A stretch of DNA of 60,908 nt from Thermoprotei archaeon (GCA_003649205.1 QMRC01000010.1:1-60908), one strand, 5' to 3'; positions 24,686 to 34,541 are shown, counted from the stretch's first letter. Made by a program: numbers and translations. The notes: generated from the letters alone by a model not told the origin.

Positions 24686-26473
24686 GTGGATTTCATGAGT
24701 TACGGAAGCTATGCCCTTCCTAAGATCTTGCTATCTAGGGGAGCCTTTAGGAAGGTATGTAAGCACGTGTACTCCGTTTTTGATAAGGAGGTTATTGGTC
24801 TTTTAATTGGTGAGATAGTTTATGAGGATACTCAACCAGTGGTTGTTATTTGGGATGCTATACCGGGTGAGGCGGAAGCTTCTGAAATTCACGTTAGCTT
24901 GAGACCTGAGTTCTTGGCAAAAGTCATGAACGATATCTTAACTGGTAAGATTAGTGGTCGAATCGTTGGTTGGTACCACTCTCATCTCGGTGTTGGTGTC
25001 TTCCTTAGTGAAGTAGATGCGAGGACCCAGTCAATGCTACAGCAATTTTCTCAGAATGTAGTTGCTCTCGTTGTTGATGTTATTCAGAAGAAAGCTGGTT
25101 TCTTCATTCTAAGGAATGGTCAGCCCATTAAAATTCCTAGAGAAAACATTCAGATGATCTCCAATGAGGAGATGACTAAACTTAAGCAGCAGATAGTAAC
25201 TAAGTGCTCGCAGACAATACTTGGGGGGAAGTCCATTCGAGTATCGATTGTACCTAGGAAGAGAATTATCTTCAGGAGGAAAAGGTCTAGTGCTCTATTG
25301 TTCGTAGCAACTATATGCATCGTCACTATAGTACTTCTAGCTACATTACTTGTCATGTATCGAGGTATACATTATCGAGGTGTAAGTAGGGAAGCTGCTA
25401 CATTAAGGGATTTGGTACGTAGTTACAACACTACTCTCTTCAAAATAGCAGAGAGTATAGGATGTGGGGGTAGGGAAGTTGAACTATCATCTCTACTCGC
25501 TCTCATGGTTAAGTACGGTGAGATGAACATCAGTAGTACTCAAGCTAACTTACTTACCTCTACTTGGCCTCTCTCACTTTTCATACTAAATGCGACAGGT
25601 AGTGTCGAAAAAACCTGTACCACCTTACATAGGCTAGATAAGGTCATGAACATTTCCTCGCTAAGTTCTACCCAAAGATACTTACTTCTTCACACACTCT
25701 ACTTACTGAGCGAGAAACTGGATGGTAATCTAAGCAAGGCTGTTGACGTACTTATCAAGCTTTACAGAGCTATCGAGGAATGTGGTGGTGATCTAGCTAC
25801 TACTCACTCGTTAATTGAGTACGTTAGCTCATCTACTCTAGATGCCATATGGGAGGTACGAGATGATGAGAAGTTGGTTAGTAAGGTGTGTCTTCTACTT
25901 AAGCTTCAAGAGGTAAATCCAAAGCTACTGAGTTATGATGTTATTGAGTTGACTCTCTGGTTGAGAAATTTAGAGGGTTTAGGTATTGGGTGGATTACAT
26001 TAGCTAGAATTAACATGTCGAATATTGAGGATTTAGGAGCTTTCCCTCTTAACTTAACGCTTTTTGTAAATGGTTCTTCGAGGGGAAGTGTGGTGATTTC
26101 GCTAGAGAATCTAGTGAATGTACTGGAGCTACTTCATCTGAAGTATGGTGATTTGGTGTCGATGGGAAATAGCTTAGTCATAACATCGTCGAGAGGTGTT
26201 AGGTCTATTAAGCTTCTCGTGAATGAGCCTAAGAGTGCTGTGGTAATCCTCAAGATTGGGACTCACATGATCAAGTTAGGTACTGGTAGGAGTTTTAACA
26301 TATGTATTGTACTCAATCCTCCACTACCTAAGGAACTTATTGAGAAGCTCCTGTTTGGTGAAGGTCTTTTAAAGGTCACTATTAATGGTAGGGAGGTATC
26401 GCTAAGGTTTAGTAGTGAGCAGACTAGTCTTAAGGAAGGAATCCTAGTATACACAGTTCGTAGTGCTCAGTGA
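24686..26473 (+). CDS. Rpn11-like JAMM/MPN+ metalloprotease with central TM helix and large C-terminal domain
   Basis: KEVIGLLIG, IVGWYHSHLGVGVFLSEVD (H-x-H-x7-S-x2-D), ALVVD; basic RKRIIFRRKR followed by a TM helix. Confidence 0.88.
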   Translation: MDFMSYGSYALPKILLSRGAFRKVCKHVYSVFDKEVIGLLIGEIVYEDTQPVVVIWDAIPGEAEASEIHVSLRPEFLAKVMNDILTGKISGRIVGWYHSHLGVGVFLSEVDARTQSMLQQFSQNVVALVVDVIQKKAGFFILRNGQPIKIPRENIQMISNEEMTKLKQQIVTKCSQTILGGKSIRVSIVPRKRIIFRRKRSSALLFVATICIVTIVLLATLLVMYRGIHYRGVSREAATLRDLVRSYNTTLFKIAESIGCGGREVELSSLLALMVKYGEMNISSTQANLLTSTWPLSLFILNATGSVEKTCTTLHRLDKVMNISSLSSTQRYLLLHTLYLLSEKLDGNLSKAVDVLIKLYRAIEECGGDLATTHSLIEYVSSSTLDAIWEVRDDEKLVSKVCLLLKLQEVNPKLLSYDVIELTLWLRNLEGLGIGWITLARINMSNIEDLGAFPLNLTLFVNGSSRGSVVISLENLVNVLELLHLKYGDLVSMGNSLVITSSRGVRSIKLLVNEPKSAVVILKIGTHMIKLGTGRSFNICIVLNPPLPKELIEKLLFGEGLLKVTINGREVSLRFSSEQTSLKEGILVYTVRSAQ

Positions 26474-26546
26474 TGTAAGTCAGGGAAAGTTAAATAAACT
26501 ACCTTCGTAAGTTCCAATTGTCAGCACGTGTTACTTGGGTGTGAAA

Positions 26547-27005
26547 ATGGTTAAAATTTGTCCAAAGTGTGGTAAGGAAAATCCGGACGAAGCATCATAT
26601 TGCTTGCACTGTGGTGCACAGTTAGGTGCTGCACCATCAGCACCTGTAGCGAAGCCACCACCTACTGTTACCGTGACGAAGCCACCTGTAACTGCTAAGC
26701 CAGTACCTACAGCACCGGCAGTCACAGCACCTAGACTACCAACAGTAACATCAACTATAATAAGACCACCAGGGATGTGCTTCTACCATCCACAGATACC
26801 TGCTAAGTACATCTGTAGCAGATGTGGAAGACCAATCTGCGAAAACTGCGCAACGGAAATTGGAGGACTGATCCTATGTCCTCAGTGCGCAGCAGGTATA
26901 GCACCTATTAGAGGAAGAAGCTATTGGTGGATAGCGGTAATTGTTGGTGTTGCTATTGCCGCAGCCATAGCCTTCGTAATACTGTTCTTCCCAACAGTAC
27001 CCTAA
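26547..27005 (+). CDS. zinc ribbon + Pro/Thr linker + B-box-like Zn finger + C-terminal TM anchor
   Basis: CPKCG..CLHCG; CFYH..CSRC..ICENC..LCPQC; C-terminal WWIAVIVGVAIAAAIAFVILFF. Confidence 0.8.
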   Translation: MVKICPKCGKENPDEASYCLHCGAQLGAAPSAPVAKPPPTVTVTKPPVTAKPVPTAPAVTAPRLPTVTSTIIRPPGMCFYHPQIPAKYICSRCGRPICENCATEIGGLILCPQCAAGIAPIRGRSYWWIAVIVGVAIAAAIAFVILFFPTVP

Positions 27006-27020: not shown

Positions 27021-28274
27021 TTAATCTCCCTTTTCTTCCCTACTCTCCAGTCTATGCACTAAAGAGCTCATCTCTAGCAGACTCATTGTGAACTTCTCAA
27101 GTGTGTTCAATAGCTCTTCTGCCTTTTTACATACTTCAATGACTATCCTACGTACTTCTTCATTTAGGTCGGTGGTAATGTTGAGAGAGTCTTCAATGCA
27201 CGTTCTCAATTTATTGATTAGGGCTGTAGTCTCTGTTCTACACCTCTCTGCACTTAGCACCGTAATCTCTAGCGAAGTAGTTTCCTCCTTAAGTTGCTTA
27301 AGATATTTCTCAAGCTCTTCCCTCCTAGCTAGTAATGTAGCTAGCTCGTTCTGGAGCTCAGGTCTCTCTTCAATCAGTATTCTAGCACGTAACAGCTCAA
27401 TCTCATCATCTAATCTCCTAATCTCCTCCTCAATGCTCTCAATCTTCGCCTTAACATTGCTAGGTATCGGTACGCTACCTACCTCACCAGGTACAAGGTC
27501 TATCTTCAACTTCGTTAAAGGAATTGACAAACCTAGCTTAGTTAATGCATCTGCTACTAAGGTATTCAACTTAGAAATATCGCTTAATATCTCTCTCTTC
27601 TTGGCTACATACTCCTCGACCTCCACATCACCTATCTCAAGCTTGGTCTCTAAGACCTCTAGGTCTTCCACCTTACCTTTCAGAAGTTCTTCGAATTGCT
27701 TAGCTACTTCCACTAGCAACATCGTAGCTAGTGAACAACATGTTGTGAGACTACTTAACTTAGCCAAGTACTCACTACTTAATCTCTTATAAGCTGTTTC
27801 GCTAACTCTACCTTCTTTCCTGAAGTTACTCAATTTCTTTAGCTTTGTGACTAGTGAATGTAGGTCGATGAAGATAGAGCTTATGTAGTTCTCAATTGTT
27901 TTGCTCAGTACGTTGAGTAGTGTTGTTTGATGTAGTTTCTTCACTAGATCAATTAGTCTTCTCTTCTTTCCTTCGTACTCATTAGTGCTAATTTCTCCCA
28001 GTAGCTGCTTTGCGGTTAACTCAGCATACTTACTGAGTACTATGTCCTCAAGTTCTCTAGACTTGGTAGTGGGTAGTCTATCTATGTCTATGAGGTCTTC
28101 TAGGTACAGATCAATTAATGCGGCTAATACATTGTAGGTGGATGCTATTCCTAGTTCCCGACTTAAAGTGCCTAGTTCTAGGTGGAGTGTGGTATTTCCT
28201 GTTTCTCGATATTTCTTGAGTAGTACATCTATGAGCTTCTGCTTTAGCTCCTTATCCTGTACATTACTTGTCAT
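27021..28274 (-). CDS. coiled-coil protein with N-terminal wH-like segment and CdvA/SHOCT-like motifs
   Basis: GEISTNEY, GRVSETAYKRL, LEIGDVEVEEY; long heptad helices; third gene of the Ubl-E2/E1 operon. Confidence 0.6.
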   Translation of the reverse strand: MTSNVQDKELKQKLIDVLLKKYRETGNTTLHLELGTLSRELGIASTYNVLAALIDLYLEDLIDIDRLPTTKSRELEDIVLSKYAELTAKQLLGEISTNEYEGKKRRLIDLVKKLHQTTLLNVLSKTIENYISSIFIDLHSLVTKLKKLSNFRKEGRVSETAYKRLSSEYLAKLSSLTTCCSLATMLLVEVAKQFEELLKGKVEDLEVLETKLEIGDVEVEEYVAKKREILSDISKLNTLVADALTKLGLSIPLTKLKIDLVPGEVGSVPIPSNVKAKIESIEEEIRRLDDEIELLRARILIEERPELQNELATLLARREELEKYLKQLKEETTSLEITVLSAERCRTETTALINKLRTCIEDSLNITTDLNEEVRRIVIEVCKKAEELLNTLEKFTMSLLEMSSLVHRLESREEKGD

Positions 28275-28296: not shown

Positions 28297-29562
28297 TTAC
28301 TTAATTCTAATCAAGACCTCACGTATGTTGTCTCTGACTTCGTCACGAAATAGTACCTGTAATATCGTACCTTGGGTGTTTGGTATCTCTTTACCTAAGT
28401 CTATGGGTACTACCCCTTCACTAGTTAGCTCATGTATGTACAATCTCTCCCTATCAATTTTGGTACTCAATCTATCTTCAATCATTCGTACTAGTGTGTC
28501 TATGTCTGTGACTTTATTTGGCTCAATATCGATTACCGGTACTTTCTCTTTAACGATACCTTCGTAACCACATACAACACATCTCGTATTTCTTGCTATG
28601 TTTAGCACTGTGTAGCGATTGTTATCTAGGTCAATTAGCAGTACACCTCTAAGTGGTTTGCCTGCATCCTTAGGCCATGTACCTTTTTCCCTGTACTCTC
28701 TGTAGCCGAGAACTAGCTTAATGACCTCTTGTGCCTCTATGGCAGCTACTACGGAGGTTGTAGTCGGTAGTGATGGCATCTTCACCTCCTCTATTGGTGG
28801 TGCACATGGATTACTTAGTTGAATAGCTTCACTGTACTTCTCGGGTGCTATAGTACATGCGAGACATGGTGTTTCAAATGGTAGGACGACCTGTACTCTA
28901 CCCTGGGGACCGTACATACCTCCATCAACTAGTGGTATGTCATATTTTAGTGAGATCGTTGAGAGGTATACTCTAGCTGCTACATTGTCTAGACCTGACA
29001 CAACTACGTCGTGCTCAAGTAGTTTCCTCAGTGGTATCTTCTCTACGAAGTCACATATGTAGTTGAAGTTCGTCCAAGGGAATAGTTTCTTTGCTCTCTC
29101 TGCTAGGGCCTTGGCCTTTAATGCACCTAGATCTGTCTTCTTGAAGAAAATCATTCTGTTTAGGTTTGAGTACTCGACAGTGTCGAAGTCAACTATGGTT
29201 ATGGAGCCAATACCTAGCTGAGCTAAGTTCTTAACTAGTTCATTCCCTAGAGCACCTGCACCTACGATGAGTACCTTTGCTCTTCTTAACTTCTTCTGAT
29301 TTTCAGTACCCCACAGGATTAGTTGCCTTGCCCAGAGGTAATCAACTACTATCCTAACGCTATCTCTAATGTTCTTCTGTTCAAGTACTTCGCGCAAGGT
29401 CTTGTCCTCAGGTAGTAGCTCACCCTCGAGGAGAAGCTTCGTCAATTCAGGTTCAATACCTAAGTCTCTACATATTCTCTTCTTCAGTGTCTTGATCTTT
29501 ATTCCTGGATTTACTTTGATTTGGCTTTTCGTGACGTTAGGTATCTCGACAATGATCCTCAT
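28297..29562 (-). CDS. ubiquitin-like domain fused to E1 (ThiF/MoeB/UBA) activating enzyme
   Basis: N-terminal IKTLKKRICRDLGIEPELTKLLLEGELLPEDKTL (ubiquitin-like); ARQLILWG, VGAGALG, DFDTVEYSNLNR, GLDNVAAR, CLAC..NPC..CVVC. Confidence 0.9.
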   Translation of the reverse strand: MRIIVEIPNVTKSQIKVNPGIKIKTLKKRICRDLGIEPELTKLLLEGELLPEDKTLREVLEQKNIRDSVRIVVDYLWARQLILWGTENQKKLRRAKVLIVGAGALGNELVKNLAQLGIGSITIVDFDTVEYSNLNRMIFFKKTDLGALKAKALAERAKKLFPWTNFNYICDFVEKIPLRKLLEHDVVVSGLDNVAARVYLSTISLKYDIPLVDGGMYGPQGRVQVVLPFETPCLACTIAPEKYSEAIQLSNPCAPPIEEVKMPSLPTTTSVVAAIEAQEVIKLVLGYREYREKGTWPKDAGKPLRGVLLIDLDNNRYTVLNIARNTRCVVCGYEGIVKEKVPVIDIEPNKVTDIDTLVRMIEDRLSTKIDRERLYIHELTSEGVVPIDLGKEIPNTQGTILQVLFRDEVRDNIREVLIRIK

Positions 29563-29567
29563 GATCT

Positions 29568-30434
29568 CTATTGTTGCTGTGTCTTCTTATCCCATCTCAA
29601 GACCCTAACTCTAATACCTAGATCTTCAGGTCTCTCCATTACTTCCAGCTCTATTATGTCCTTTATCTCTTCCTCCTTAACTACCTTCCTCTTCCTTGGG
29701 AATCCATACTTGAGGCATATCTCTGCTGCTCTCCTGCATCTTGGGTGATCGAAGATGTCTAGTGGGTTAGGGTCAGCTAGTAGGTGGTACAGTGCATTTA
29801 TCACGGTTGTTAATCTGAAGTATGGTCTCCAACCATCACCCAGTATTGAATGGCATACACCGCCTGGTACGTTTGGAACTATATTTGGGTGATCTATCTC
29901 TGTTAACCATGTAACTACTGGTGGTGCGAAGGGGTACTCTGGTTCCTGTGGGTACTTCTTCCTGAGGTGTGGGTACTTCTTGTATGTTTCCTTGGTTGGT
30001 AACTCTATTAGGAATTTGTGCCACTGTACGTACTGTGTGAATGGCCATACTCCTCTATTAGCTAGCTCAACTATGTCCTTGTCCTCACATCTAATCAATC
30101 CCTCATACATTGTTGGTGGGTAGTTCAGTGCTTTAACTAGTGGAAATTGTCTCCTAACTAGCTCATACTCCTCAAGTAATCTCGCTACGTCAATACCACC
30201 TATGAGGTATGTTGGCATGAGTGCTAGTCTAGCGTATTCTGGTATTGCTAATTGAGCTACAGTTAATCCTTCATTTAGTATTGTTCCTCCGTAGACGAGT
30301 ACTACGGTATTTGGGTCTATACCCAGTTGCTGACAGACTACTGCTTTGATCTCACCTATTGTATGTTCTGGAAGGACATCGACTTCAACCAGACCAGAAG
30401 CTTCACCTATTGGGATCTCTATAAATAGCTTCAT
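29568..30434 (-). CDS. ubiquitin-like domain (ending LIGG) fused to UBC/E2 conjugating enzyme
   Basis: 80-aa Ubl (TIGEIKAVVCQQLGIDP..LVYGGTILNEGLTV..LIGG), then RLLEEY..YPFAPP..HPNI..GGVCHSIL..WRP..LLADPN; ATG 30434. Confidence 0.92.
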   Translation of the reverse strand: MKLFIEIPIGEASGLVEVDVLPEHTIGEIKAVVCQQLGIDPNTVVLVYGGTILNEGLTVAQLAIPEYARLALMPTYLIGGIDVARLLEEYELVRRQFPLVKALNYPPTMYEGLIRCEDKDIVELANRGVWPFTQYVQWHKFLIELPTKETYKKYPHLRKKYPQEPEYPFAPPVVTWLTEIDHPNIVPNVPGGVCHSILGDGWRPYFRLTTVINALYHLLADPNPLDIFDHPRCRRAAEICLKYGFPRKRKVVKEEEIKDIIELEVMERPEDLGIRVRVLRWDKKTQQQ

Positions 30435-30483
30435 ACCACACACCTATGGTGAAGCAGCTTCCCACTACTCTCTGTACTAAGGT

Positions 30484-31489: not shown

Positions 31490-31822
31490 CTAGATCTTTG
31501 CTCTTAATTTTCCCAATCTAATCAACTTCCTAATTATTTCCTTCAGTTGCTCCTCTGTTATACCGAATTCGTAAGCTGTTCTCGATATGGAGATTCTACC
31601 TCTATGCGCAACTATGTACCTGTAGATCTTCAGCTCTAAGTCACTTAACTCCTCCTCAACTTGAGGCTTAGGTATCTCACTCCCTTCAACTCTTGAAAGT
31701 AACTTACTGAGTAGCCTAATCACAATACCTTTCTCTCTACCCCCTGCGTATGTGCTCAAGAGCTTAGGTCTTAGATGAATCACTACGAAATCTCCTTCAC
31801 TCACTACATCTGTACTCATCAT
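31490..31822 (-). CDS. small protein with C-terminal winged-helix domain
   Basis: LSDLELKIYRYIVAHRGRISISRTAYEFGITEEQLKEIIRKLIRLGKL. Confidence 0.7.
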   Translation of the reverse strand: MMSTDVVSEGDFVVIHLRPKLLSTYAGGREKGIVIRLLSKLLSRVEGSEIPKPQVEEELSDLELKIYRYIVAHRGRISISRTAYEFGITEEQLKEIIRKLIRLGKLRAKI

Positions 31823-33010: not shown

Positions 33011-34012
33011 CTACTCCTTCTCCCAGAGCTTATAGATTTCATCGCGAATGTACTCATTCACTTCCTCCACTACACCAGTAACTCGATGAACCTTGACTCC
33101 ACAACCTTCTCTAGCAACACCTATTACCGTAGCACCCACACCTACTTCCTTCAATGCTGTAAGTGCTCTATCGAGGTTTTCTGGTGGTACAGCAGCTAGG
33201 AGAACACCGGAGCTAATTAGCTTTAGAGGATCTAAACCCAGTACCTGACATACCACCCTCGTTTCCTCTCGAATGGGTACTCTCTCTTCCCATACCTCGA
33301 TGAGTACTCTAGATGAGTACGCCATCTCAGCTAAACCACATAGGATACCACCTTCGGTAGGATCATGCATTGAATGTACTCCTACCTTAGCTAGCGTGAG
33401 TGCCTCCTTAACGACGCTGATTTCCCTAATGAATTGCCTTGCCCTCTCAATCACTACCTTCGACACTCCTCTACTTAGCAGTGTTTCCTCGAAGTCTGTA
33501 GCTAGAATTGATGTACCTTCAAGAGCTACTGCTTTTGTCATGATTATATAGTCACCAGGCTTAACACCGCTAGTCGTTACGTACCTATCTCTAGGAGCTA
33601 ACCCGATAGCGCTCATCACCACAATTGGTCTAGCGAGATGTGGTGTGTACTCACTATGACCTCCAACGACCATAGCACCCACCTCCTTAGCAGCAGCATC
33701 TATCTGCCTGGTTATCTTGTCCAGTAACTCCTCCGGCGCGTTCTCAGGTAGAAGGATCGTACTCAGTAACCAACGTGGTTTTGCACCACATACTGCAACA
33801 TCGTTACAGGCTATGTGCACAGCTAACCAACCAATATTCTCCTCAGCTGCTGTTATTGGATCTACGTGAACTACCAGCACTACATTATCTCCTAGATCTA
33901 TGATTGCTGAGTCCTCACCGTACGTAGGTCCTACAATAACTGCTGGATCAGCTGCTCCTATTCTCGAAAATACATACTTACGTAGGAGATTTGGTGGTAT
34001 CTTTCCTGACAT
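33011..34012 (-). CDS. AIR synthase-related (HypE/PurM-like) protein
   Basis: GEDSA, VDPIT, NDVAVCGA, VGGHSE, MHDPTEGG, DPLKLISSG. Confidence 0.85.
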   Translation of the reverse strand: MSGKIPPNLLRKYVFSRIGAADPAVIVGPTYGEDSAIIDLGDNVVLVVHVDPITAAEENIGWLAVHIACNDVAVCGAKPRWLLSTILLPENAPEELLDKITRQIDAAAKEVGAMVVGGHSEYTPHLARPIVVMSAIGLAPRDRYVTTSGVKPGDYIIMTKAVALEGTSILATDFEETLLSRGVSKVVIERARQFIREISVVKEALTLAKVGVHSMHDPTEGGILCGLAEMAYSSRVLIEVWEERVPIREETRVVCQVLGLDPLKLISSGVLLAAVPPENLDRALTALKEVGVGATVIGVAREGCGVKVHRVTGVVEEVNEYIRDEIYKLWEKE

Positions 34013-34541
34013 AACGACATCCTCTAATACCGAACCTACTTAATTGCTTTAGCAGTACGTACTCCAGCTCAAGTAGTCGTCTATACTTACTCTCATCCCG
34101 TCTTCTCAATGCATCTAGTACTTGAGTCTCTAACTCTTGAAGCTTTCTCAGGTACTCAATGACTACATCTGAGCAACTTGGTGAGATCTCTATCACTAGT
34201 ACCTCGTAACCTCTCGGTGATCTAGCTACCGTACACACATAGAGGGGGTATCCTAGGAAGCTAGCTTTCGTAGCTACATCACCTAAGTCAACCGTTGATG
34301 GCGTCCACTTGCTAAGTGGATGCGTGTGAACGTAACCGATGAACCTCATGTAGGGATTACTTGTATCTACGGGAAAGACTCCACCATAGGTTGATAACAC
34401 AAGTGGTTCAGTAACTACGACCTCACCACTTGAATTCAGGTAGAGAGGTGTAACTACTTCACTACCTGTTTCACTCTGTAGCTCAAGTAATTTAGGTGCT
34501 AAGGTTATAGCTATCTTCACCACCTTACTGAATAAATCCAC
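33978..34541 (-). CDS. soluble JAB/JAMM-domain protein
   Basis: GSEV upstream Glu, FIGYVHTHPLSKWTPSTVDL (H-x-H-x7-S-x2-D). Confidence 0.7.
   Translation of the reverse strand: MDLFSKVVKIAITLAPKLLELQSETGSEVVTPLYLNSSGEVVVTEPLVLSTYGGVFPVDTSNPYMRFIGYVHTHPLSKWTPSTVDLGDVATKASFLGYPLYVCTVARSPRGYEVLVIEISPSCSDVVIEYLRKLQELETQVLDALRRRDESKYRRLLELEYVLLKQLSRFGIRGCRYVRKDTTKSPT

What the first reader, a model, noticed from the sequence alone, without database searches (positions are those of the whole stretch)
29568..30434. Ubiquitin-E2 polyprotein: the modifier ends in LIGG directly before the E2
Seen: residues 1-80 follow the ubiquitin pattern (TIGEIK..LGIDP..LVYGGTILNEGLTV) and end Y-L-I-G-G (Gly codons at 30200-30195), with no stop, before a UBC domain with YPFAPP, HPN and catalytic Cys (GGVCHSIL). 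Known: eukaryotic Ub is made as fusions (polyUb, Ub-ribosomal protein) cleaved after GG, and Caldiarchaeum pro-Ub is matured by an Rpn11-like JAMM. Inference: cleavage yields Ubl and E2 in 1:1 stoichiometry, so conjugation depends on a JAMM protease, which could act as a built-in activation switch.
Basis: partly seen in the sequence, partly recalled or inferred. Interest (0 to 1): 0.88.

Follow-up and report, generated by a model that had tools for sequence, protein, structure and literature searches.

The report
Archaeal ubiquitin fused to its E2
An archaeon encodes its only ubiquitin-like protein joined head-to-tail to its ubiquitin-conjugating enzyme, most likely as a precursor that a neighbouring metalloprotease must cut after Gly-Gly before any tagging of proteins can start.

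Summary
Window 29568-30434 (-) is one 288-aa frame. Residues 1-80 are a ubiquitin-family beta-grasp ending L-I-G-G. A UBC E2 with HPN and Cys194 follows with no stop between them.

It is not an assembly artefact, because a second genome of the same genus has the same join. In 84 of 84 related loci where the Ubl is a separate gene directly upstream of the E2, it ends in GG. In 49 of those it carries a 1-9 residue tail that must be trimmed. The conserved operon also holds an Rpn11-like JAMM, whose closest solved relative is Caldiarchaeum CsRpn11, plus a Ubl-E1 and a membrane Zn-ribbon/B-box protein.

The window's genome (93.8% complete) has no free Ubl, no ThiS/MoaD, and only one E1, one E2 and one Rpn11-type JAB. 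I therefore read the fusion as a precursor cut after G80 by the JAMM at 24686, with confidence about 0.65. Cleavage itself is not shown.

GG is not universal among fused homologues, which carry GG, AG or AA. The AA forms are degenerate Ubl domains, and their genomes also keep a free GG Ubl.

The mechanism has a bacterial precedent: BubAB is cut by a JAMM. I found no archaeal report. I rate it a new variant of a known kind, of moderate interest.

The parts
29568..30434 (-). Ubl-E2 fusion gene, 288 aa plus TAG stop
   Evidence: Searches show a single frame carrying PF00240 and PF00179. 94% identical fused copy in the same-genus genome G001/L003.
30195..30434 (-). Ubiquitin-family domain, residues 1-80, ending L-I-G-G
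   Evidence: Pfam gives 31.0 bits. An HMM built from free Ubls only gives 113.8 bits. The domain is 56-63% identical to free Bathyarchaeia Ubls of the same 80-aa length. The AF2 model shows a beta-grasp at 2-74.
30189..30200 (-). Proposed scissile junction G79-G80 | I81-D82 (GGT GGT ATT GAC)
   Evidence: The sequence is read. It aligns to Ub G75-G76. The start of stand-alone E2s (M-D) aligns to I81-D82. The predicted JAMM complex places residues 73-81 in the interface.
29571..30194 (-). UBC E2 domain, residues 81-288. HPN is at 29883-29891 and the Cys194 codon at 29853-29855. An 18-residue insert at about residues 147-164 is unique to this genus. The tail at 250-288 is disordered.
   Evidence: H182, P183, N184 and C194 are invariant in 25 of 25 rows of alignment A1.
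28297..29562 (-). E1 (ThiF family) with an N-terminal ubiquitin-like domain that has no GG. It starts 5 nt after the Ubl-E2 stop.
   Evidence: Pfam gives ThiF 188.3 bits and ubiquitin 30.2 bits. G101-G106, R136, D192, the Zn cysteines 233/236/328/331 and C253 are conserved in at least 95% of 74 rows, and the cysteines in 74 of 74. It is the only ThiF-family gene over the cut-off in the genome.
27021..28274 (-). 417-aa coiled-coil-like protein downstream of the E1 on the same strand. No family assigned and not conserved elsewhere.
   Evidence: Only sub-threshold hits. Homologues found in 0 of 73 related loci.
26535..27005 (+). Zn-ribbon plus B-box-like Cys/His domain plus a C-terminal hydrophobic helix. 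Candidate E3 or adaptor (inferred).
   Evidence: Pfam gives Zn_Ribbon_1 37.3 bits and zf-B_box 28.0 bits. Homologues sit next to the Ubl/E2/E1 genes in 62 of 73 loci.
24686..26473 (+). Rpn11-like JAMM/MPN+ metalloprotease. The catalytic domain spans about 24686-25195, followed by a hydrophobic helix and a 370-aa C-terminal region. Proposed processing enzyme.
   Evidence: Pfam JAB PF01398 gives 49.7 bits. The E..., HSH...S..D motif is invariant in 16 of 16 rows. The closest solved relative is CsRpn11 6fjv at 108 bits, E 3.3e-30. Homologues are neighbours in 48 of 73 and 21 of 27 loci. It is the only PF01398 hit in the genome.

Best explanation
The gene encodes a precursor.

Shown:
- It is a single frame made of a ubiquitin-family domain ending G79-G80 and a canonical UBC E2.
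- It lies in a conserved archaeal operon with a cysteine-bearing E1, an Rpn11-like JAMM and a membrane Zn-ribbon/B-box protein.
- The fused Ubl is the orthologue of free, GG-ended Ubls that sit directly upstream of the E2 in relatives.
- It is the only Ubl found in this genome.

Inferred:
- The JAMM at 24686 cuts the G80|I81 peptide bond. This releases an 80-residue modifier with a free Gly-Gly carboxylate and an E2 that starts at I81.
- The E1 then adenylates the Ubl and takes it on C253.
- The Ubl passes to E2 C194 and on to targets, possibly helped by the B-box protein.
- Without the cut nothing can be activated, so modifier and E2 are made 1:1 and the pathway depends on the protease.
For: 1. 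Orthology. In 84 of 84 free Ubl ORFs from related loci the protein ends ..MPxxI[IV]GG. 35 have no tail and 49 have a tail of 1-9 residues before the stop. The E2 start lies 4-20 nt away or overlaps in most of them. Trimming after GG is therefore already part of this family's biology.

2. The window's Ubl scores 113.8 bits against an HMM built only from 64 unique free Ubls. The free Ubls' own self-scores are 126.9-167.3. Degenerate AA-type fused domains score 14.8-42.7.

3. The own genome (93.8% complete) contains:
- Ubl-family matches only in the Ubl-E2 and at the E1 N-terminus.
- One ThiF E1 over the cut-off.
- No ThiS/MoaD.
- One UQ_con.
- One PF01398 JAB.
The same-genus genome G001 (71% complete) also has only the fused Ubl.

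4. E1 and E2 catalytic residues are intact.

5. The JAMM motif is invariant. The nearest solved protein is CsRpn11. CsRpn11 cleaves pro-Ub exactly after GG and also cleaves linear Ub-GFP, Ub-DHFR and Ub-lactalbumin fusions. Uncleaved pro-Ub is not activated by the E1. These points come from PMC5654768 (passages) and PMC6043591 (sections 13 and 14 plus passages).

6. Predicted complex of Ubl-E2(1-250) with JAMM(1-150) and Zn: ipSAE 0.73 against a best control of 0.02. That mark was reached by 58 of 80 solved complexes and 2 of 110 mismatched pairs. The runs agree in at least 78% of contacts, and partner pLDDT is at least 85. The interface on the fusion is residues 6-12, 38-52 and 69-81 only. 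On the JAMM it includes H95, S105 and D108. A like complex (6FNO) is solved, so this pass may be from memory and shows likeness only.

7. Precedent. Bacterial Type I Bub BubAB is a Ubl-E2 pre-protein cut by the operon's JAMM domain right after the conserved Gly (PMC11601596, passages).

8. A second, 26%-identical Ubl(GG)-E2 fusion, flanked by an E1 and directly followed by a JAMM gene, exists in another family of the same phylum.
Against: No cleavage product, proteome or RNA evidence exists.

Uncleavable-looking Ubl-E2 fusions (AA, GA, CA at the junction) are stably kept in Thermoplasmata-type relatives, so a permanent Ubl domain on this E2 is viable.

The E1 of the same operon carries a permanent N-terminal Ubl domain without GG.

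The junction has no linker. E2 helix 1 starts at residue 83 and P1' is a beta-branched Ile. CsRpn11 was blocked by bulky residues just after the site and could not cut a folded Ub-DHFR fusion without a 3-residue linker (PMC6043591, sections 13-14). None of the 49 natural tails starts with Ile.

P0001's score lies slightly below the free-Ubl range.

GG is seen in only a few sequences of the window's own lineage: P0001, P0002/L003, and perhaps P0004 (support 83, branch drawn open). Its retention could therefore reflect a young fusion.

The genome is incomplete (93.8%).
Confidence: 0.65

Rival explanations
1. Permanent two-domain E2. The Ubl is never released and instead acts as a built-in interaction or regulatory module, for example docking to the E1, JAMM or B-box protein. 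GG is a leftover of a recent gene fusion.
For: AA, GA and CA junction fusions with diverged Ubl domains (14.8-42.7 bits) persist in Thermoplasmata-type relatives. The operon's E1 has a non-cleavable N-terminal Ubl. There is no linker between GG and E2 helix 1. P1' is Ile, unlike all 49 natural tails. Bulky P1'/P2' residues or a tightly folded neighbour blocked CsRpn11 (PMC6043591, sections 13-14).
Against: This would leave an intact Cys-bearing E1 and E2 with nothing to activate. No free Ubl and no ThiS/MoaD were found in the genome. All four genomes with AA-type fusions keep a strong free GG Ubl of 117-119 bits, whereas the window's genus does not. The window's Ubl domain stays close to free modifiers at 113.8 bits.
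Confidence: 0.25
2. A precursor, but cut by something other than the operon JAMM. Candidates are the second JAMM-motif protein at 33978-34541, another protease, or slow self-cleavage.
For: The 33978 ORF carries an H-x-H...S-x-x-D motif (sequence) and a weak Prok-JAB hit of 17.7 bits, below the 25-bit cut-off. Relatives of this Ubl exist that are fused at GG|C or AG|C to Hint-like self-cleaving domains (P0101, P0133). Release at this bond by other means therefore occurs in the family.
Against: Homologues of the 33978 protein lie near the system in 0 of 73 loci, against 48 of 73 for the 24686 JAMM. No Hint domain or nucleophile follows GG here, since the next residue is Ile. The 24686 JAMM is the CsRpn11 relative.
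Confidence: 0.07
3. Artefact: a sequencing or assembly error removed a stop codon between two genes.
For: In most relatives the two genes are separated by a single stop or a few bases, so one error could in principle fuse them.
Against: The same join is found in an independently assembled same-genus MAG. Contigs of runs from two other studies bridge the junction with no indel listed. Fused forms recur in several other lineages. No start codon for a separate E2 is present, because ATT replaces ATG/TTG/GTG.
Confidence: 0.02

Closest known systems
Caldiarchaeum subterraneum ubiquitin operon (pro-Ub, E1, E2, small RING E3, CsRpn11)
   Same: Both have a eukaryote-like Ub-family modifier with GG, a UBC E2 with HPN and Cys, an E1 with a catalytic Cys, and an Rpn11-like JAMM. 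CsRpn11 is the best PDB match of this JAMM family at 108 bits, and CsUb is a fold match. In Caldiarchaeum the modifier is made as a pro-form that the JAMM must trim after GG before the E1 can use it (PMC5654768, PMC6043591).
   Different: There the extension is a 9-residue peptide, whereas here it is the whole E2. No RING protein was identified here. A membrane Zn-ribbon/B-box protein is the conserved extra gene instead. The JAMM here carries a hydrophobic helix and a long C-terminal region, and the E1 has an N-terminal Ubl domain.
Bacterial Type I Bub operons: BubAB Ubl-E2 pre-protein cut by the JAMM domain of BubCD (PMC11601596, PMC11601603)
   Same: The same logic applies. The modifier is encoded as an N-terminal fusion to its E2, and a JAMM peptidase of the operon cuts right after the conserved C-terminal Gly.
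   Different: BubB lacks the catalytic Cys and uses Ser/His with oxyester intermediates. It also lacks the C-terminal UBC helices. Its JAMM is fused to the E1, and a DUF6527 serine protease is present. Here the E2 has Cys plus HPN, the JAMM is a separate membrane protein, and DUF6527 was not found. No PADLOC or NCBIfam model matches the fusion. It is an independent fusion in a different E2 family.
Eukaryotic ubiquitin precursors (polyubiquitin, Ub-ribosomal protein fusions)
   Same: A linear fusion of Ub through G76 to a downstream protein is released by a deubiquitinase, giving equimolar products (established knowledge; also stated in PMC5654768).
   Different: The partner there is a ribosomal protein or more ubiquitin, not an enzyme of the cascade. 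Processing is by Cys-protease DUBs.
Split Ubl + E2 + Ubl-E1 + JAMM + ZnR/B-box operons of Bathyarchaeia
   Same: These are orthologous genes: Ubl 56-63% identical, E2 about 50%, and the same neighbours.
   Different: There the Ubl is its own gene ending GG or GG plus 1-9 residues. I found no publication describing this operon family in the searches made.

Membership tests
Ubiquitin family (PF00240) | Beta-grasp fold with a sequence match over the curated cut-off | tested here: met
   31.0 bits against a cut-off of 25.4. AF2 beta-grasp at 2-74. Foldseek TM on target 0.83-0.89 to ubiquitin.
Ubiquitin family (PF00240) | C-terminal Gly-Gly at the position of Ub G75-G76 | tested here: met
   LIGG aligns on LRGG. 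The terminal Gly is invariant in 18 of 18 rows of A2.
Ubiquitin family (PF00240) | Covalent conjugation to targets through the C-terminal Gly | not testable with these tools
   Needs biochemistry or proteomics.
UBC E2 (PF00179) | UBC fold with HPN motif and catalytic Cys | tested here: met
   51.5 bits against a cut-off of 27. H182, P183, N184 and C194 invariant in 25 of 25 rows. Fold matches to UbcH5/UbcH7 at TM about 0.67 on target.
Caldiarchaeum-type archaeal ubiquitin system | Rpn11-like JAMM with an intact metal site encoded with the Ub/E1/E2 genes | tested here: met
   Motif invariant in 16 of 16 rows. Best PDB match CsRpn11. Neighbour in 48 of 73 loci. In the window it lies 3.1 kb from the fusion, on the other strand.
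Caldiarchaeum-type archaeal ubiquitin system | Small RING-finger E3 | tested here: inconclusive
   No RING hit among the 10 neighbouring proteins scanned. A Zn-ribbon/B-box protein is conserved instead. The genome was not scanned for RING families.
Caldiarchaeum-type archaeal ubiquitin system | Modifier made as a pro-form trimmed after GG by the JAMM | not testable with these tools
   Supported indirectly only: 49 of 84 free relatives carry tails, and the complex prediction passed.
Type I Bub (BubAB/BubCD/BubE) | Ubl fused N-terminally to the E2 | tested here: met
Type I Bub (BubAB/BubCD/BubE) | E2 with catalytic Ser/His instead of Cys, and JAMM fused to the E1 | tested here: not met
   Cys194 and HPN are present. 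The JAMM and E1 are separate genes. The features of Bub are taken from PMC11601596.
Type I Bub (BubAB/BubCD/BubE) | DUF6527 protease BubE in the operon | tested here: not met
   PF20137 found in 0 of 1 genome at E <= 0.1 (genome 93.8% complete). The control rang in Caulobacter.

The most novel reading that the evidence does not exclude
The fusion is a zymogen-like, spatially gated start switch. The Ubl sits two residues ahead of E2 helix 1, which is the face canonical E2s use for E1 and E3. The uncut protein would therefore be inert both as modifier and as E2. Both are licensed only where the membrane-anchored Rpn11-like JAMM acts, next to the membrane-anchored B-box protein. In an organism whose only Ubl, E1 and E2 are these genes, all ubiquitin-like tagging would then be made 1:1 and switched on at the membrane by one protease.
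Probability: 0.25. Interest if true: 0.7.

Novelty: new variant of a known kind. Interest (0 to 1): 0.55.

Why it matters
Archaeal eukaryote-like ubiquitin systems are the best available models for how the eukaryotic cascade arose. Only the Caldiarchaeum system has been reconstituted.

This case is a minimal natural experiment: one Ubl, one E1, one E2 and one Rpn11-like protease, with the modifier physically tied to its E2. If cleavage is confirmed, three things follow:
- Making ubiquitin as a fusion that a JAMM must release predates eukaryotes in a canonical, Cys-based cascade.
- The Ubl-E2 pre-protein solution arose independently of bacterial Bub systems.
- The system offers a small thermostable set of proteins for studying Rpn11-type processing of a folded linear substrate.

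The comparative set found here covers split forms, GG- and AG-fused forms, AA-fused forms kept alongside a free Ubl, and Ubl-Hint fusions. Together these give a ready series for asking when a fused Ubl stays a modifier and when it becomes a permanent domain.

Tried and rejected
- **Expression:** no RNA holder was listed for the stretch, so expression could not be examined. The runs laid were contigs only, so raw-read support at the junction was not obtained. 102 substitutions were not displayed.
- **Second JAMM (33978-34541):** rejected as an operon partner, with 0 of 73 loci and a Prok-JAB hit below the cut-off.
- **PCI-like hit on the 110-aa protein at 31490-31822:** 22.5 bits against a cut-off of 22. 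I followed this up. Its weak matches in 32 loci fall in large surface proteins with Ig-like domains and a Zn ribbon. I dropped it as generic winged-helix similarity.
- **One origin for all fusions:** I tried to decide this with a tree (quick method). The backbone is unresolved (61 of 136 inner branches open), the window's branch is long, and a long-branch warning was raised. No order of events is claimed.
- **Defence-system membership:** PADLOC and NCBIfam gave no model for the fusion, JAMM or B-box protein. Only generic E1 matches appeared.
- **Literature:** Burroughs et al. 2011 (PMC5938088) is not held and may describe related operons. Supplements of the Bub and Caldiarchaeum papers were not seen. 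My first two tries of two literature searches failed on a term that was too short and were re-sent.
- **Own-genome HMM note:** the HMM was built from fused sequences only, so I rebuilt one from free Ubls to avoid circularity.

Full report
**1. What is there**

On the minus strand, 29568..30443 is one open frame. The ATG at 30434 gives a 288-aa protein (P0001), and homologues start at the same MK[LI]F. The sequence shows GGT GGT at 30200-30195, followed in frame by ATT GAC, so there is no stop between the two parts.

- Pfam places ubiquitin (PF00240, 31.0 bits, cut-off 25.4) on residues 16-71. It places UQ_con (PF00179, 51.5 bits, cut-off 27) on residues 163-230.
- phmmer against PDB aligns residues 10-81 on ubiquitin, with LIGG-I on LRGG-M.
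- An AF2 model built on a 25-row alignment (mean pLDDT 81.9, pTM 0.64) has a beta-grasp at 2-74, a free tail at 75-82, E2 helix 1 from residue 83, and a disordered end at 250-288.
- Foldseek finds ubiquitin (TM on target 0.83-0.89), Caldiarchaeum Ub (0.80) and UbcH5/UbcH7 (about 0.67).

**2. Not an artefact**

- A MAG of the same genus (G001; contig L003) encodes a 94%-identical fusion with the same GGTGGT ATTGAC join.
- Contigs of runs from two other studies bridge the junction, and no insertion or deletion is listed. These are contigs only, X1 may be the source sample, and 102 substitutions were not shown.
- Fused forms also occur in other lineages (section 4).

**3. The operon**

- Five nucleotides downstream starts an E1 (28297-29562). 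It scores 188 bits for ThiF and has an N-terminal ubiquitin-like domain without GG.
- In an alignment of 74 unique E1s, the Gly-rich loop, R136, D192, four Zn cysteines and C253 in an N-P-C motif are conserved. The window has all of them.
- On the other strand lie an Rpn11-type JAB (24686-26473, PF01398 49.7 bits) and a Zn-ribbon/B-box protein (26535-27005). Each has a hydrophobic helix, which I read directly from the sequence.
- Among 73 related loci from species genomes, homologues of the JAMM, the ZnR/B-box protein and the Ubl-E1 lie beside the E2 in 48, 62 and 70 loci. Many loci are cut by contig ends. The second JAMM-motif ORF (33978) and the coiled-coil ORF (27021) have 0 of 73.
- The JAMM motif is invariant in 16 of 16 aligned catalytic domains.
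- The family's best solved match is CsRpn11 (6fjv/6fnn/6fno, 108 bits, E 3.3e-30), ahead of CSN5 and Rpn11.

**4. What the relatives show**

*Split relatives.* The 73 genome loci are mostly Bathyarchaeia, with some Thermoplasmata. In nearly all of them the Ubl is a separate ORF directly upstream of the E2, usually 4-20 nt away or overlapping.

I pooled these with 27 metagenome loci. 84 free Ubl ORFs passed my filter, and 84 of 84 end in GG. 35 stop right there. 49 carry 1-9 more residues, starting N, T, S, R, Q, C, G, A, H, V or K. Many relatives therefore encode pro-Ubls that must be trimmed after GG, as in Caldiarchaeum.

*Fused relatives.* Fused forms are the minority. Of 27 fused Ubl domains that passed the filter, 5 have GG, 11 AG, 8 AA, and 1 each GA, CA and AT at the junction. 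Scored against an HMM built from the 64 unique free Ubls only, they fall into two classes:
- 15 GG/AG domains of the window-like and AG clades score 113.8-144.4 bits, with the window at 113.8.
- 12 Thermoplasmata-type domains score 14.8-42.7 bits.
- For comparison, free Ubl self-scores are 126.9-167.3 bits.

*Free Ubl elsewhere in the genome.* The four genomes that carry AA-type fusions each also hold a strong free Ubl (117-119 bits). The window's sister genome holds only the fused one.

*The AG clade.* The AG-fused loci (L076-L081, up to 13.9 kb) show the JAMM, two ZnR/B-box genes and the Ubl-E1, but no free Ubl in the DNA available. A free Ubl ending AG plus a 4-residue tail also exists (P0080).

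*Tree.* A quick tree of 139 E2 domains separates a Bathyarchaeia clade (all split or context unknown), an AG-fused clade, a Thermoplasmata clade (split and fused mixed), and the window's long branch. The backbone is unresolved, so I do not say how many fusions there were.

**5. The window's genome**

The genome is 2.07 Mb in 31 contigs, 93.8% complete.
- Both PF00240 and my Ubl HMM run without filters hit only the Ubl-E2 and the E1 N-terminus.
- It has one ThiF-family gene over the cut-off, one PF01398 JAB, one UQ_con, no ThiS/MoaD and no DUF6527.
- In 39 genomes of two other families of the same order the fusion was not found. It occurs in 2 of 41 genomes searched, both of the window's genus.
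- In an even sample of the phylum, UQ_con occurs in 48 of 301 genomes.

The system is patchy. In this organism it is the only Ubl/E1 machinery found.

**6. Mechanism**

Adenylation by an E1 needs a free C-terminal carboxylate (established knowledge). Uncleaved Caldiarchaeum pro-Ub was refractory to its E1 (PMC5654768, passages). An intact E1 and E2, with no other Ubl, therefore argue that the Ubl must be released.

The agent best supported is the 24686 JAMM. Its closest characterised relative cuts pro-Ub exactly after GG, and also cuts linear Ub-sfGFP, Ub-lactalbumin and Ub-DHFR fusions (PMC5654768 passages; PMC6043591 sections 13-14).

A predicted complex of Ubl-E2(1-250), JAMM(1-150) and Zn passed:
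- The score was 0.73 against a best control of 0.02. The mark was reached by 58 of 80 solved complexes and 2 of 110 mismatched pairs.
- The runs agree in at least 78% of contacts, and partner pLDDT is at least 85.
- The interface uses only Ubl residues up to I81, and JAMM residues that include the motif's H95, S105 and D108.

A like complex is solved, so this shows likeness and is no proof that this copy binds.

Against the reading:
- The junction has no linker.
- P1' is Ile.
- CsRpn11 was blocked by bulky residues after the site and by a folded DHFR without a linker (PMC6043591 sections 13-14).
- The AA-type fusions and the Ubl-E1 show that permanent Ubl domains are tolerated in these proteins.

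I put the precursor reading at about 0.65, a permanent domain at 0.25, another protease at 0.07 and artefact at 0.02.

**7. Comparison with what is known**

The logic is the same as in bacterial Type I Bub operons. There the BubAB Ubl-E2 pre-protein is cut by the JAMM domain of BubCD after the conserved Gly (PMC11601596, passages; PMC11601603, passages). Iyer et al. 2006 had already listed a polyUbl fused to an inactive E2-like domain (PMC1779556, table passage).

The window's protein is not a Bub member. It has Cys194 and HPN where Bub has Ser/His. Its JAMM is separate from the E1, and there is no DUF6527. It also matches no PADLOC or NCBIfam model.

By sequence it belongs with the Caldiarchaeum-type eukaryote-like systems. 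It differs in the size of the extension, the membrane-anchored JAMM, the B-box protein in place of a RING protein, and the Ubl on the E1.

Five full-text searches returned no report of an archaeal Ubl-E2 fusion or of this Bathyarchaeia-type operon. Burroughs et al. 2011 could not be read, and supplements were closed.

**8. A second archaeal case**

In another family of the same phylum (G174, G206, G212), a 272-276-aa ORF encodes a Ubl ending P-V-G-G fused to an E2 with HPN and Cys. UQ_con scores 30.4-31.0 bits, over the cut-off of 27. Ubiquitin scores 21.2-23.2 bits, just under its cut-off of 25.4. The ORF is 26% identical to P0001 over both domains.

A 312-aa ThiF E1 lies about 600 nt upstream. 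A 160-aa JAB (52.9 bits) follows 10 nt downstream. Those genomes also have a separate free Ub next to a canonical E2 and a Ubl-E1.

So GG-junction Ubl-E2 fusions next to a JAMM recur in archaea. GG can also be kept in a fusion when a free Ub of another system is present.

**9. Verdict**

- It is a new variant of a known kind, with interest 0.55.

Noticed in passing
P0101 (321 aa) and P0133 (295 aa), from the representative library: Relatives of this Ubl (47% and 42% identical over residues 1-81) are fused at ..MGG|C and ..IAG|C directly to a Hint/intein-like domain. Several Hint families hit below their cut-offs, starting at the Cys. This suggests self-cleaving Ubl precursors or E1-independent C-terminal activation. 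Source organism and gene context are unknown.
   Followed up: partly
L107:6417-9283 (G206 contig C1); also L106 (G174) and G212: A second type of archaeal module in the same phylum. It consists of a ThiF E1 (312 aa), a Ubl(..PVGG)-E2 fusion (276 aa, HPN plus Cys), and a 160-aa JAB 10 nt downstream. It sits beside a metallo-beta-lactamase-fold gene. The same genomes also hold a free Ub, an E2 and a Ubl-E1 set elsewhere.
   Followed up: partly
window 28297-29562 (-), residues 1-75 of the E1: The E1 carries an N-terminal ubiquitin-family domain (30.2 bits) without a C-terminal GG. The E1 ORFs of most related loci show the same weak Ubl match. Its role is unknown. It might recruit the E2 or JAMM in the way a ubiquitin-fold domain does.
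   Followed up: partly
window 24686-26473 (+) and 26535-27005 (+): Both the Rpn11-like JAMM and the Zn-ribbon/B-box protein have a hydrophobic helix. The JAMM also has a 370-aa C-terminal region with no family. In relatives, large surface proteins with Ig-like or PKD domains and a Zn ribbon lie next to the operon. The system looks membrane-associated.
   Followed up: partly
window 33978-34541 (-): A 187-aa ORF has an H-x-H...S-x-x-D JAMM-type motif but only a sub-threshold Prok-JAB hit (17.7 bits). It overlaps the start of an AIR-synthase-family gene (33011-34012). No ThiS/MoaD-type substrate was found in this genome, so its substrate is unclear.
   Followed up: partly
Genomes G041-G044 (Thermoplasmata; loci L035/L024, L043/L072, L056/L071, L049): Each genome holds two paralogous sets. 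One has a free GG Ubl next to an E2. The other is a Ubl-E2 fusion whose Ubl is diverged and ends AA or similar. This is a natural example of a fused Ubl turning into a permanent domain.
   Followed up: partly
window 29943-29996 (-), residues about 147-164 of the fusion: An 18-residue Lys/Tyr/Pro-rich insert (TKETYKKYPHLRKKYPQE-like) precedes the YPFAPP strand of the E2. It is present only in the window and its 94% relative, among 25 aligned homologues.
   Followed up: no
window 33011-34012 (-) and loci L057, L064, L075, L083, L086, L099: Homologues of the AIR-synthase-family protein (AIRS and AIRS_C domains) recur several kb from the Ubl operon in some Bathyarchaeia loci. This could be conserved linkage or chance synteny.
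   Followed up: no
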